Origin: a virus
Taxonomy: Duplodnaviria; Heunggongvirae; Uroviricota; Caudoviricetes
Virus record (IMG/VR): IMGVR_UViG_3300030310_000016
DNA length: 20,834 bases
Strand: one strand, 5' to 3'
The stretch's first letter is position 1, and each line of letters opens with the position of its first letter. Of this stretch, positions 11,052-11,872 are shown piece by piece. Made by a program: the position numbers and the translations under genes. The notes beneath the pieces were generated by a model, which was given only the letters and a program-made list of their open reading frames with translations, was not told where the DNA came from and did no database searches.

Positions 11052-11840
11052 TTACCCCCTGAAGCCTGGCGGGATCGCACTATCCGGTAACGAGACGGTG
11101 TTAACCTGTCGGAGTAACGTCTCAGGTCGAACACCTTTCGGCGCGAACAAGCCCTGGTATTCGTTGGCGATGCTGTGTCGAATCACCTGCTCAGGTGAAA
11201 AACCCTGCTGGCGGAATTTTTCCAGCTCCCGTATCGCCCCGTTAGCGCCCTGCTCCGTTCGAATCGGTTTTCGCAATGCCTGCCTGAACTGAACCCACTC
11301 ATGCCAGAGTGTTTCCGGCAACCAGTCAGGCAGCTCGATAGCCTCCGGTTCGAATTTTTTAGACGCTCGTTTTTGGCGAGGGGGATTTAGGGGGAGATAA
11401 GTATTTATATCTTCCTCTTTCTCTTCCTCTGGTAACGCTTTTTGATCCGTTTTTGTAACGCTGGCAGCGTTACCTTTTCGTTTCAGTTCTCGTATTTTTG
11501 TTACTCTCTCGTTTGTAACCGCCCGTTTTTTAGAGCTTTTCCCGTTATGGCGCTCAAAGTTAGGAAGCGACAACACACCATTAGTTTCGACCAGCCATCC
11601 AACCTGAATTAACGCATCAGCAAAACCAGCCATAAAAGTGATGCGATCTATTGCACTTTTTGTAACGCCGCGAGCGTTACACTCTGCGTTACCGTCTATC
11701 ATTTGTTGATCCGCCCATGCCCAGAAGCGAATGACTTTCCCTAATGCGGCATCTGGATCAATATTCAGAATCTCAGCAAGCCTGAATATTTCCGGCTTAT
11801 CCGGCGTAATAACTTCGAGCTTTATCCAGTTTGAAGCCAT
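11052..11840 (-). CDS. ydaU: replication initiator, phage O-like (YdaU-like), 262 aa
   Basis: Position upstream of the DnaC-like loader, N-terminal region typical of O-like initiators, and the gene carries internal palindromic 19-mers (see repeat features). Confidence 0.7.
   Translation of the reverse strand: MASNWIKLEVITPDKPEIFRLAEILNIDPDAALGKVIRFWAWADQQMIDGNAECNARGVTKSAIDRITFMAGFADALIQVGWLVETNGVLSLPNFERHNGKSSKKRAVTNERVTKIRELKRKGNAASVTKTDQKALPEEEKEEDINTYLPLNPPRQKRASKKFEPEAIELPDWLPETLWHEWVQFRQALRKPIRTEQGANGAIRELEKFRQQGFSPEQVIRHSIANEYQGLFAPKGVRPETLLRQVNTVSLPDSAIPPGFRG
11455..11473. repeat. 19-bp palindrome GTAACGC-n5-GCGTTAC, copy 1 (inside the O-like gene)
   Basis: GTAACGCTGGCAGCGTTAC; read directly from the sequence. 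Confidence 0.6.
11662..11680. repeat. 19-bp palindrome GTAACGC-n5-GCGTTAC, copy 2 (inside the O-like gene)
   Basis: GTAACGCCGCGAGCGTTAC, with an extra GCGTTACC half-site at 11686..11693. Confidence 0.6.
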
Positions 11841-11853
11841 TTGTTTTCACCTT

Positions 11854-11872
11854 GTAACGCTCGCAGCGTTAC
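11854..11872. repeat. 19-bp palindrome GTAACGC-n5-GCGTTAC, copy 3 (14 bp upstream of the O-like gene start)
   Basis: GTAACGCTCGCAGCGTTAC in the ydaT-ydaU intergenic region. Confidence 0.6.

What the first reader, a model, noticed from the sequence alone, without database searches (positions are those of the whole stretch)
11431..11872. Three copies of a 19-bp palindrome (GTAACGC-n5-GCGTTAC) in and just upstream of the O-like replication gene
Seen in sequence: near-identical palindromes at 11455..11473, 11662..11680 and 11854..11872, plus half-sites at 11431..11438 and 11686..11693, are spaced about 200 bp apart. Two lie inside the O-like coding sequence and one lies 14 bp upstream of its start. 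Established knowledge: lambdoid origins lie inside the O gene and are bound by O at repeated sites with internal dyad symmetry. Inference: these are initiator or regulator binding sites (origin-associated or autoregulatory). The spacing is wider than classic tandem iterons, so an operator role is equally possible.
Basis: partly seen in the sequence, partly recalled or inferred. Interest (0 to 1): 0.4.

Follow-up and report, generated by a model that had tools for sequence, protein, structure and literature searches.

The report
Replication origin inside a prophage initiator gene
The three palindromes are real and most likely are the DNA sites that this Rac-type prophage's replication initiator binds on its own gene to start copying; the same layout recurs in thousands of related, unnamed phage initiator genes in several bacterial phyla.

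Summary
Observation confirmed. Three perfect GTAACGC-N5-GCGTTAC palindromes (11455-73, 11662-80, 11854-72) and two solo half-sites (11432-38, 11686-92) lie in and just upstream of a 262-aa initiator gene (11052-11840, minus strand) of an E. coli Rac-type prophage. Chance expects 0.05.

Comparison with about 380 related loci shows selection on the DNA itself:
- Codons inside the arms are fixed against background usage.
- An Asn-to-His codon change in one arm is always paired with a synonymous Val change in the other.
- All half-sites of a genome, solo ones included, change together between lineages.
- They form inward-pointing arrays with an 11-12 bp period.
- The last half-site abuts a polypurine (GAGAA)n tract that stays the same whatever the half-site.

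The only gene always present is the initiator's N-terminal domain, which has no Pfam family and is unrelated to K-12 YdaU's. Two residues of its basic helix (109, 113) track the half-site sequence.

Best reading: a lambda-like origin inside the initiator gene. Its core is site 3, the terminal half-site and the purine/AT tract. Sites 2 and 1 are auxiliary clusters. RacR-, YdaS- and YdaT-like regulators are not the conserved partner. Binding and origin activity are inferred, not shown. New variant of a known kind.

The parts
11455..11473 (.). Site 3, the palindrome of cluster B: GTAACGC-TGGCA-GCGTTAC at gene offset +367. It encodes G-N-A-A-S-V-T at the start of the disordered linker. This is the core origin site.
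   Evidence: It sits at a fixed offset in 80 close relatives, with invariant arms and variable spacers. An equivalent palindrome lies at +331 to +403 in most of 69 species loci. AF2 pLDDT is below 50 for aa 125-148.
11432..11438 (-). Terminal half-site of cluster B. On the gene strand it reads GCGTTAC(C), 23 nt downstream of the right arm of site 3 (start to start), and directly abuts the polypurine tract.
   Evidence: In 42 diverse loci, and in 111 of 120 viral contigs, the last half-site ends ...ACC immediately before AGAGAAG....
11396..11430 (-). Polypurine and AT-rich tract. The gene strand reads AGAGGAAGAGAAAGAGGAAGA TATAAATACTTATC and encodes EEEKEEDINTY. It is a degenerate copy of the family's (GAGAA)n element and the candidate site of DNA unwinding or helicase loading.
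   Evidence: Local GC is 0.35-0.43 and the plus strand is T-rich. Family profile: purine fraction 0.83-0.84 and GC 0.14-0.19 below the gene mean. Arg codon AGA makes up 76/84 in the tract against 64/866 elsewhere. The motif CCAGAGAAGAGAAGAGAAGA lies inside an N-domain gene in 111/120 viral contigs.
11662..11692 (.). Cluster A: site 2 palindrome GTAACGC-CGCGA-GCGTTAC (11662-11680, gene offset +160) plus a direct extra half-site (11686-11692, offset +148). The gene-strand order is > > <. It encodes GNAE-CNARGVT in a surface loop.
   Evidence: The 4-codon insertion relative to most homologues is a 12-nt duplication of a half-site. The codon test applies at this site. The loop aa 47-60 has low pLDDT. 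The cluster is present at +142 to +196 in most family members, and at +54 to +100 in the epsilon15 clade.
11854..11872 (.). Site 1, the upstream cluster: GTAACGC-TCGCA-GCGTTAC at gene offset -32, non-coding, between an 8-bp hairpin and the Shine-Dalgarno sequence. It is either an auxiliary origin cluster or an autoregulatory site.
   Evidence: A copy is present at -32 to -44 in Escherichia/Shigella, two Serratia species, Winslowiella and Pantoea (four half-sites in Pantoea L090), but absent in Serratia fonticola L087. Weaker copies occur at -57 and -21 in some Verrucomicrobiota, and there is none in most other lineages. No sigma-70-like promoter was found on the gene strand here.
11052..11840 (-). 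Replication initiator gene (262 aa). The N-terminal DNA-binding region is aa 1 to about 122, the disordered linker about 123-150, and the C-terminal domain is 81% identical to K-12 YdaU aa 162-285.
   Evidence: phrog_2509 'replication initiation protein', E=4.7e-88. No Pfam family. C-domain identity and unrelated N-domain. AF2 model. RefSeq annotates it as 'hypothetical protein' WP_001396581.1.
11475..11534 (-). Coding region of the basic helix aa 103-122 (SKKRAVTNERVTK...), the predicted half-site reading element. Residues T109 and V113 go with the GTAACG half-site.
   Evidence: Helix 103-122 in the AF2 model. Columns 109 and 113 carry the highest mutual information with half-site type among 130 non-redundant N-domains. 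D109/K113 appears convergently in L356 and in the epsilon15 clade.
10299..11045 (-). ydaV, a DnaC-like helicase loader gene immediately downstream. It is the presumed partner of the initiator's C-terminal domain.
   Evidence: Pfam IstB_IS21 E=3.9e-20 and Bac_DnaA. phrog_50 'DnaC-like helicase loader', E=7.7e-86.

Best explanation
The palindromes are double-stranded DNA binding sites for the protein encoded by the gene that contains them. That protein is a phage replication initiator with an unnamed N-terminal DNA-binding region, made of a winged-helix-like domain followed by a basic helix.

Together the sites form a lambda-type origin embedded in the initiator gene. The proposed sequence of events is:
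1. The initiator, probably as dimers or higher oligomers, occupies inward-pointing arrays of GTAACGC half-sites.
2. The core array is cluster B: site 3 plus the terminal half-site at 11432-38.
3. Cluster B directly abuts a polypurine/AT-rich tract (11396-11430), where the duplex is opened.
4. The initiator's C-terminal domain brings in the DnaC-like loader YdaV and the host DnaB helicase.
5. Cluster A (site 2 plus its duplicated half-site) and the upstream site 1, each about 200 bp away, are auxiliary clusters. They may help assemble or stabilise the complex, for example by looping. Site 1 may in addition throttle read-through transcription into the initiator gene.

Shown here: the sites exist; they are under DNA-level selection; they go with the N-domain and co-vary with it; the purine tract is conserved.

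Inferred: binding by the initiator, unwinding at the tract, helicase loading, and the roles of sites 1 and 2.
For: (1) The sites are not chance: 3 perfect palindromes against 0.05 expected, and 8 of the window's 11 heptamers lie within 441 bp.

(2) Selection acts on the DNA.
- At the +148 site of 47 diverse homologues, Gly is GGT in 40/41 (background 25%) and Asn is AAC in 41/41.
- Val is GTT in 41/41 when the left arm has AAC, and GTG in 6/6 when it has CAC.
- The residue before Val varies among Ser, Gly, Arg and others, but its last two bases are GC in 41/47.
- Cluster-B palindromes occur in all three reading frames across the family.
- In 41 distinct close relatives, 4/42 arm positions vary against 5/10 spacer positions, p=0.008.

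(3) Every half-site of a genome changes together, including solo copies that have no inverted partner. The types seen are GTAACGC, GTCACGC, GTTGCGC (8 copies in L120), CTAACGC, GTCCGC (epsilon15, phiPSA1), GTAGAC (Raharianne) and GTCCGG.

(4) Half-sites form arrays with an 11-12 bp period. Same-orientation spacings are 11/12 (66 cases), 22-24 (22) and 33-35 (10). Convergent spacings are 13 (85), 24/25 (63) and 36/37 (29). Only 8 pairs are divergent.

(5) The motif is specific to this gene family. Of 120 viral-contig stretches with the exact palindrome, 100 carry the N-domain gene, and 165/187 palindromes lie in or beside it. Half-sites are essentially absent from the 2.5-kb flanks.

(6) The only conserved partner is the N-domain: 27/27, against YdaT-like 2, YdaS-like 0, RacR-like 3, DnaC-like 4 and YdaU-type C-domain 1.

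(7) Residues 109 and 113 (i, i+4) of basic helix 103-122 track the half-site type. L356 (GTCCGG) is 73% identical to the GTAACG-type L178, yet has D109/K113 like the distant epsilon15 clade.

(8) The layout matches lambda: sites in the linker-coding middle of the initiator gene, next to an AT-rich tract, with a helicase-loader gene downstream (PMC7466680).

(9) The invariant (GAGAA)n tract sits after the last half-site in 111/120 contigs, with AGA Arg codons 76/84 against 7% elsewhere.

(10) The module is the only replication module of a complete circular temperate phage. It is present, with an N-domain 100% identical at the protein level, in the deposited complete phage genome vB_EcoS-673R7.
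Against: - No binding, unwinding or replication experiment exists for this module. Literature searches found none.
- In the window each cluster is small (2-3 half-sites) and the clusters are about 200 bp apart, unlike lambda's four to six tandem iterons.
- Cluster A is missing in some lineages (L178, L356), and the upstream site is lineage-restricted. Their necessity is therefore doubtful.
- The distance between clusters A and B shows no fixed helical phase.
- The window's purine tract is a degenerate version of the family consensus.
- The residue/half-site correlation is largely clade-structured, with only one clear convergence.
- Compensatory arm changes are also what an RNA or single-stranded DNA hairpin would show.
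- This Rac-type prophage lacks virion structural genes, so the origin may be unused in this host.
Confidence: 0.72

Rival explanations
1. The sites are autoregulatory operators or roadblocks rather than an origin. The initiator binds them only to limit expression of its own gene and of ydaV. The upstream palindrome would block incoming transcription or ribosome access, and the intragenic ones would act as elongation roadblocks. The origin would lie elsewhere.
For: Site 1 lies 13 nt before the ATG, next to the Shine-Dalgarno sequence. Iteron-plasmid Rep proteins autorepress through inverted repeats (my own knowledge). All window sites are inverted repeats. The upstream cluster recurs in several Enterobacterales and carries four half-sites in Pantoea.
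Against: No sigma-70-like promoter overlaps site 1 on the gene strand. The upstream copy is absent from most of the family, whereas cluster B plus the purine tract is near-universal. An invariant purine/AT tract abutting the last half-site has no obvious role in repression but fits an unwinding element. This reading can coexist with the origin model for site 1.
Confidence: 0.15
2. The sites act as structure rather than as duplex binding sites. The palindromes would function as hairpins in the mRNA (stability or translation control), or in single-stranded DNA or as cruciforms (for example a primosome-assembly or priming signal).
For: Arm changes are compensatory (A..T to C..G, and others). The arrays are nested inverted repeats (> > < <). 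A consensus scan flags 11455-73 as terminator-like on the plus strand. Hairpin formation by lambda iterons has been discussed in the literature (PMC7466680).
Against: Solo and same-orientation half-sites that cannot pair change in concert with the paired ones: L120 has 142> 154< 165< 187<, L088 has 367> 379> 391> 403< 426<, and the terminal half-site behaves the same way. The arm sequence itself, not merely its pairing, is conserved from E. coli to Planctomycetota. The spacing follows a helical-face period of 11-12 bp. No U-run follows the palindromes on the transcribed strand. There is no Rfam match. The half-site type tracks protein residues.
Confidence: 0.07
3. The sites are bound by another factor: a neighbouring prophage regulator (RacR-, YdaS- or YdaT-like) or a host DNA-binding protein.
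For: The locus encodes three HTH or CII-like regulators immediately upstream.
Against: Among 27 species loci with the exact palindrome, YdaT-like genes occur in 2, YdaS-like in 0 and RacR-like in 3. Half-site type varies between elements in related hosts (for example GTAACGC and GTCACGC both occur in Pseudomonas and in Burkholderiales), which argues against a conserved host factor. From my own recollection, unverified here, YdaT of CP-933P is reported to recognise a different inverted repeat (TTGATT-N6-AATCAA).
Confidence: 0.04
4. The palindromes are a by-product of a conserved peptide (G-N-A-x-S-V-T) and codon bias, with no function as DNA.
For: Both intragenic palindromes are read in the same frame as GNAxSVT in the window.
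Against: Synonymous positions are fixed against background usage and co-vary across the dyad. Cluster-B palindromes occur in all three frames. Site 1 is non-coding. The peptide lies in a low-confidence loop and in the linker.
Confidence: 0.02

Closest known systems
Bacteriophage lambda ori / O protein (and the Stx-phage variants)
   Same: The origin lies inside the initiator gene, in the part that encodes the linker between the DNA-binding and loader-recruiting domains. Each binding site is a 19-bp inverted repeat (7-N5-7; lambda iteron ATCCCTC-AAAAC-GAGGGAT). An AT-rich, strand-asymmetric tract follows the last site. The helicase-loader gene lies immediately downstream. Extra sites add amino acids to the initiator: 13 aa in Stx phages and 4 aa here (PMC7466680).
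   Different: There is no detectable sequence homology to lambda O: no Pfam hit including Phage_rep_O, only a PHROG 'O-like' match over the middle and C-terminal part, aa 76-236. The sites are split into two or three clusters about 200 bp apart instead of four to six tandem iterons. Within clusters the half-sites form inward-pointing arrays with an 11-12 bp period. The adjacent tract is a conserved (GAGAA)n pentanucleotide repeat. The loader is DnaC-like, not lambda P.
oriJ / YdaU-YdaV replication module of the E. coli K-12 Rac prophage
   Same: It has the same chromosomal prophage position (trkG-ttcA) and the same gene order: racR, ydaS, ydaT, initiator, ydaV. The C-terminal domain of the initiator is 81% identical, and ydaV is equivalent. 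The K-12 gene also carries repeats followed by an A-rich tract at the matching position. oriJ is reported as an active origin (PMC3945230).
   Different: The N-terminal domain is unrelated: K-12 has DUF1376, and neither BLASTP nor hhalign finds similarity. The K-12 repeats have a different sequence, ATGTTCAAAC-like. Homology resumes only after the purine/AT tract, so the N-domain and its sites have been exchanged as one cassette. GTAACGC palindromes are not a feature of K-12 oriJ.
Iteron-plasmid Rep systems (for example pSC101 RepA, F RepE, R6K pi; my own knowledge)
   Same: The initiator recognises repeated short sites phased by about one helical turn. Inverted repeats near the start of the rep gene serve for autorepression. 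An adjacent AT-rich unwinding element is present.
   Different: In those plasmids the iterons are direct repeats outside the rep gene and are bound by monomers. Here the arrays are convergent and lie inside the gene. No Rep_3 or other plasmid Rep family is matched. No DnaA box is present nearby.
Split or intragenic phage origins such as P4 ori/crr and SPP1 oriL (my own knowledge)
   Same: Initiator-binding repeats occur in more than one separated cluster, in direct and inverted orientation, and some lie within the initiator gene.
   Different: The initiators are unrelated (P4 alpha primase-helicase; SPP1 G38P) and the separations are kilobases rather than about 200 bp. The resemblance is recalled from memory and was not tested here.

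Membership tests
Lambda-type intragenic origin (O/ori) | Repeated sites with internal dyad symmetry inside the initiator gene, at the junction between the DNA-binding domain and the linker | tested here: met
   Site 3 and the terminal half-site lie at aa 123-137, where the AF2 model becomes disordered. The same position holds across the family.
Lambda-type intragenic origin (O/ori) | Four or more closely spaced tandem iterons in one array | tested here: not met
   The window has three clusters of 2, 3 and 3 half-sites, separated by 192 and 207 bp. Relatives have 3-5 half-sites per cluster at 11-12 bp.
Lambda-type intragenic origin (O/ori) | AT-rich tract directly flanking the sites | tested here: met
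   GC is 0.35-0.43 at 11380-11540. The family-wide purine tract has GC 0.14-0.19 below the gene mean.
Lambda-type intragenic origin (O/ori) | Initiator homologous to lambda O (Pfam Phage_rep_O) | tested here: not met
   There is no Pfam family at E<=0.001 for the protein, nor at E<=1 for 22 homologues except DnaT-type C-domains. Only PHROG 'O-like' phrog_678 matches, over aa 76-236.
Lambda-type intragenic origin (O/ori) | Helicase-loader gene immediately downstream | tested here: met
   ydaV matches IstB_IS21 and the DnaC-like phrog_50. In other family members the partner is DnaC-like, DnaB-like, or a DnaT-like C-domain.
Lambda-type intragenic origin (O/ori) | Initiator binds the sites, and the fragment supports replication in trans | not testable with these tools
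   The only evidence is indirect: co-occurrence and co-variation of residues with half-sites.
K-12 Rac oriJ / YdaU (DUF1376) module | DUF1376-type N-terminal domain and its ATGTTCAAAC-like repeats | tested here: not met
   BLASTP aligns only aa 139-262. hhalign of the family profile against YdaU matches only the C-terminal part. The repeats differ.
K-12 Rac oriJ / YdaU (DUF1376) module | YdaU-type C-terminal domain followed by ydaV, in the Rac prophage at the trkG-ttcA position | tested here: met
   81% identity over 124 aa. Locus annotation.
Rep autorepression operator (iteron plasmids) | Inverted repeat overlapping the promoter of the initiator gene | tested here: inconclusive
   No sigma-70-like hexamer pair was found on the gene strand near site 1. 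The scan is a simple consensus search, and the gene is probably read through from upstream.
Intrinsic terminator / structured RNA | GC-rich hairpin followed by a U-run on the transcribed strand, or a match to a curated RNA family | tested here: not met
   On the gene strand the palindromes are followed by A-rich sequence. The terminator-like hit at 11455-73 is on the antisense strand. No Rfam match at E<=1 other than a spurious tmRNA fragment elsewhere.

The most novel reading that the evidence does not exclude
The window samples a very large, unnamed family of phage and prophage replication initiators: 6,390 clusters at 50% identity, found here in Pseudomonadota, Planctomycetota, Verrucomicrobiota and other phyla. 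In this reading the family's origins share one fixed grammar. Inward-pointing arrays of a lineage-specific half-site are read by two positions (109 and 113) of a basic helix, giving a re-programmable recognition code. The last half-site ends in ...ACC and is fused to an invariant (GAGAA)n polypurine element that is the universal site of opening or helicase loading. Both elements are written into the initiator's own coding sequence and so dictate parts of its amino-acid sequence (the GNAxSVT motif and the EKRRE-type repeat). If true, origins of thousands of uncultivated phages could be located, and their incompatibility or specificity groups predicted, from sequence alone.
Probability: 0.55. 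Interest if true: 0.72.

Novelty: new variant of a known kind. Interest (0 to 1): 0.6.

Why it matters
- It gives a sequence-level, testable definition of the origin of a common Rac-type replication module. A place covering at least 80% of the 1.7-kb region occurs in 449 of 5,426 complete E. coli genomes, and the gene is annotated only as 'hypothetical protein'.
- It assigns a function and cognate DNA sites to a large protein family that has no Pfam model.
- It shows DNA signals dictating protein sequence: a loop motif and a charged linker repeat are by-products of the binding sites and of a pentanucleotide tract.
- The co-variation between half-sites and residues 109/113 suggests a simple recognition code that mutagenesis could test.
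- The invariant (GAGAA)n element next to variable sites points to a shared unwinding or loading step.
- In practice, the palindrome plus the purine tract is a compact signature for locating origins in phage contigs, and for predicting which replication modules would compete or cross-react.

Tried and rejected
- Literature searches (oriJ with Rac prophage; GTAACGC with origin or iteron; ydaU/ydaV; epsilon15 with replication; the purine motif) found no description of these sites. The whole-word oriJ search mostly returned an author's surname.
- Pfam and NCBIfam gave no N-domain family. The only hit was a DnaT-like C-terminal tail at E=0.003.
- hhalign against K-12 YdaU showed no N-domain relationship.
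- I looked for a DnaA box and for a promoter at site 1. Neither was found.
- I tested whether the A-B cluster distance keeps a helical phase. It does not; distances are 184-300 nt.
- The plasmid collection gave only two records. One is a complete circular phage and the other a 52-kb mosaic. This is weak support for autonomous replication and no mapping of the origin. I considered GC-skew mapping on that phage and dropped it, because its two opposed gene blocks would confound the skew.
- Apart from the site-encoded Asn/His, no column separates all GTCACG-type proteins from GTAACG-type ones in the first small set. The signal at residues 109/113 emerged only with 130 sequences and more half-site types.
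- A whole-genome count of the 19-mer in E. coli could not be done with the tools. It was replaced by counts in the flanks and by the viral-contig scan.
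Full report
**1. What is in the window**

The window is an E. coli Rac-type prophage lying between trkG and ttcA. It is 100% identical over the query region to strain 7/2. A place covering at least 80% of the 1.7-kb region is present in 449 of 5,426 complete E. coli genomes.

Around the finding, the genes are:
- a racR-like repressor, 12671-13090 (+);
- a ydaS-like HTH gene, 12337-12663 (-);
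- a ydaT/CII-like gene, 11918-12340 (-);
- a 262-aa gene, 11052-11840 (-);
- a DnaC-like ydaV, 10299-11045 (-).

The 262-aa protein has no Pfam family. It matches PHROG 2509 'replication initiation protein' over its full length, E=4.7e-88. RefSeq calls it 'hypothetical protein'.

**2.

GTAACGC-N5-GCGTTAC occurs exactly three times, all perfect, at 11455-73, 11662-80 and 11854-72. Shuffles expect 0.05 matches even with two mismatches allowed. Eight of the window's eleven exact heptamers lie in 11432-11872. Spacings are 207 and 192 bp. On the gene strand the palindromes start at -32, +160 and +367 relative to the ATG.

**3. Evidence that the DNA, not the peptide, is selected**

In 80 close relatives from viral contigs the three sites keep their offsets. 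The arms are essentially invariant while the 5-nt spacers vary. In 41 distinct sequences, 4/42 arm positions vary against 5/10 spacer positions (Fisher p=0.008).

Homologues of the N-terminal 140 aa, down to about 30% identity, were collected from three sources:
- the protein database (alignment);
- 69 species genomes spanning Enterobacterales, Pseudomonas, Burkholderiales, Planctomycetota and Verrucomicrobiota;
- 59 phage records, including epsilon15, TL-2011b, Xanthomonas CP2, Pseudomonas PAN70 and phiPSA1, and Ralstonia Raharianne.

Most of these carry the same palindrome at +142 to +160 and again at about +331 to +403. Perfect 7-N5-7 palindromes number 74 in 45 kb of gene region, against 47 in 330 kb of flanks. 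Exact half-sites reach 1.4-1.5 per locus in the +150 and +350 bins and about 0.02 in flank bins.

At the +148 site, which is read as G-N-A-x-x-V-T, codon use is as follows:
- Gly is GGT in 40/41 (background 25%).
- Asn is AAC in 41/41.
- Val is GTT in 41/41 when the left arm reads AAC, and GTG in 6/6 when it reads CAC (His).
- The residue before Val is Ser, Gly, Arg, Thr or another, but its last two bases are GC in 41/47.

Cluster-B palindromes occur in all three reading frames across the family. The protein motifs are therefore consequences of the DNA sites. In the AF2 model these sites fall in a low-confidence loop (aa 47-60) and in the disordered linker (aa 125-148).

The window's 'half-site' at 11686-92 is a 12-nt duplication of an arm plus spacer. 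It inserts four codons relative to most homologues. This parallels the 13 extra residues that additional iterons cause in Stx-phage O proteins (PMC7466680).

**4. Architecture**

Within clusters the half-sites form arrays:
- same-orientation spacings of 11/12 (66 cases), 22-24 (22) and 33-35 (10);
- convergent spacings of 13 (85), 24/25 (63), 36/37 (29) and 46-48 (17);
- only 8 divergent pairs.

So each cluster has the form '> > < <', on a period of about 11.5 bp. In the window, on the gene strand:
- upstream cluster: -32> -20<;
- cluster A: 148> 160> 172<;
- cluster B: 367> 379< 402<.

In almost every member a polypurine pentanucleotide repeat follows the last half-site directly. That half-site always ends ...ACC, as in GCGTTACC|AGAGAAGAGAAGAGAAGA. 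The mean purine fraction is 0.83-0.84 and GC is 0.14-0.19 below the gene mean. Arg codons in the tract are AGA in 76/84, against 64/866 elsewhere in the same genes.

The window's copy reads AGAGGAAGAGAAAGAGGAAGATATAAATAC (11396-11430). It is degenerate but still AT-rich, with GC 0.35-0.43.

Cluster A is absent in some lineages. The upstream cluster is largely restricted to Enterobacterales. The universal core is therefore cluster B plus the purine tract.

**5. Who binds**

The half-site differs between lineages while the purine tract does not. The types seen include GTAACGC, GTCACGC, GTTGCGC, CTAACGC, GTCCGC, GTAGAC, GTCCGG, GTCCGAC and GGGGAC. Within one genome all copies change together, including solo copies that cannot pair: L120 has eight GTTGCGC, and epsilon15 has eight GTCCGC within the gene.

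The exact GTAACGC palindrome is a near-specific marker of the gene family.

In 27 species loci with the exact palindrome and at least 2 kb of flanks, the N-domain is present in 27. YdaT-like genes are present in 2, YdaS-like in 0, RacR-like in 3, DnaC-like in 4 and the YdaU-type C-domain in 1.

Among 130 non-redundant N-domains typed by half-site, the most informative columns after the site-encoded Asn/His are residues 109 and 113. These are i and i+4 positions of a basic helix, aa 103-122, with the pattern SAKxRAx[109]xxR[113]:
- GTAACG and CTAACG go with T..V;
- GTCACG goes with A/S/G..K/Q;
- GTCCGC and GTCCGG go with D/E..K;
- GTAGAC goes with K..Q.

L356 (GTCCGG) is 73% identical to the GTAACG-type L178. 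Even so, it has D109/K113, like the epsilon15 clade to which it is only about 47% identical.

Taken together, the initiator's own N-terminal region is by far the best candidate for the protein that reads the half-sites.

**6. Mechanism and rivals**

The layout matches the lambda paradigm: sites with dyad symmetry in the linker-coding middle of the initiator gene, an adjacent AT-rich tract, and a helicase loader downstream (PMC7466680).

I therefore favour (0.72) an intragenic origin. In this model initiator oligomers occupy the arrays, the purine/AT tract opens, and the C-terminal domain recruits YdaV and DnaB. Two observations bear on that C-terminal domain. It is 81% identical to K-12 YdaU, and its last 19 residues resemble the C-terminus of DnaT. 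Sites 2 and 1 would be auxiliary clusters.

Rivals:
- Purely autoregulatory operators (0.15). This is mainly plausible for site 1, although no promoter overlaps it.
- RNA or single-stranded DNA hairpins (0.07). This is contradicted by the concerted change of unpaired half-sites, by sequence conservation of the arms, and by the helical phasing.
- Another regulator or a host factor (0.04).
- A coding by-product (0.02).

There is no DnaA box nearby and no Rfam match.

**7. Relation to known systems**

The module works like lambda ori/O, but the protein is not a detectable O homologue.

It is also not the K-12 Rac module. K-12 YdaU has a DUF1376 N-domain with no similarity and its own ATGTTCAAAC-like repeats at the equivalent place. 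Homology between the two Rac variants resumes just after the purine/AT tract, so the N-domain and its sites were exchanged as a cassette.

The family is large: 6,390 clusters at 50% identity with E<=1e-3. It has no name in Pfam. It provides the only replication genes of a complete circular temperate phage. It is also present, with an N-domain 100% identical at the protein level, in the deposited complete genome of phage vB_EcoS-673R7.

I found no published description of these sites. The searchable library is incomplete, so earlier work cannot be ruled out.

**8. Verdict**

The origin/initiator interpretation is supported by strong comparative evidence but by no direct evidence. The alternative of a neighbouring regulator is rejected as a general explanation. 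The element is a new variant of a known kind. Interest is 0.6.

Noticed in passing
window 11396-11430 (minus strand); family loci L085-L159 and L282-L381: A polypurine pentanucleotide repeat (GAGAA)n directly follows the last half-site in nearly all family members, whatever the half-site sequence. It forces an E-K-R-R-E-type charged repeat into the protein linker. It is a mirror repeat, so it could in principle form triplex DNA (my own inference).
   Followed up: yes
window 11883-11904: A perfect 8-bp hairpin (TACCGAAC-AAAACA-GTTCGGTA) lies in the 77-nt gap between the ydaT stop and the initiator gene, just upstream of site 1. It is only partly conserved in Shigella (L083). It could be a read-through terminator or another binding site.
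   Followed up: no
window 11052-11108 (aa 244-262 of the initiator): The last 19 residues (…VSLPDSAIPPGFRG) resemble the extreme C-terminus of primosomal protein DnaT (NCBIfam NF002770, E=0.003). Other family members carry a full DnaT-like ssDNA-binding domain (PF17948). This hints that the C-terminal tail is the handle for DnaC/DnaB-type partners.
   Followed up: partly
L002 5505-5600 (E. coli K-12 ydaU, NC_000913 about 1421504-1421599): K-12 ydaU carries its own set of ATGTTCAAAC-like direct and inverted repeats, followed by an A-rich tract, at the position that corresponds to cluster B. This is a sequence-level candidate for the core of oriJ.
   Followed up: partly
L384 (NC_015459.1, Pusillimonas sp. 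T7-7 'plasmid unnamed', 41,205 bp): This record, filed as a plasmid, is a complete circular temperate siphophage genome with integrase, terminase, capsid, tail and lysis genes. Its only replication genes are a member of this initiator family and a DnaC-like ATPase.
   Followed up: partly
L383 (ON470616.1, Escherichia phage vB_EcoS-673R7) and L382 (MN652886.1): A complete 37.8-kb phage genome carries recE, kil, sieB, repressor, cII-like, initiator and DnaC-like genes in the same order as this window, with an initiator N-domain 100% identical at the protein level. Rac-type prophages with this module therefore have full-length relatives deposited as phage genomes.
   Followed up: no
L152 2501-2511 (epsilon15), L157 2501-2508 (Vibrio phage 1.211.B): In epsilon15-like phages and in a Vibrio phage, a C-5 cytosine DNA methyltransferase gene ends by overlapping the start of the initiator gene. 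The GTCCGC/GCGGAC half-sites there contain CpG/CCG contexts, so methylation could affect the sites.
   Followed up: no
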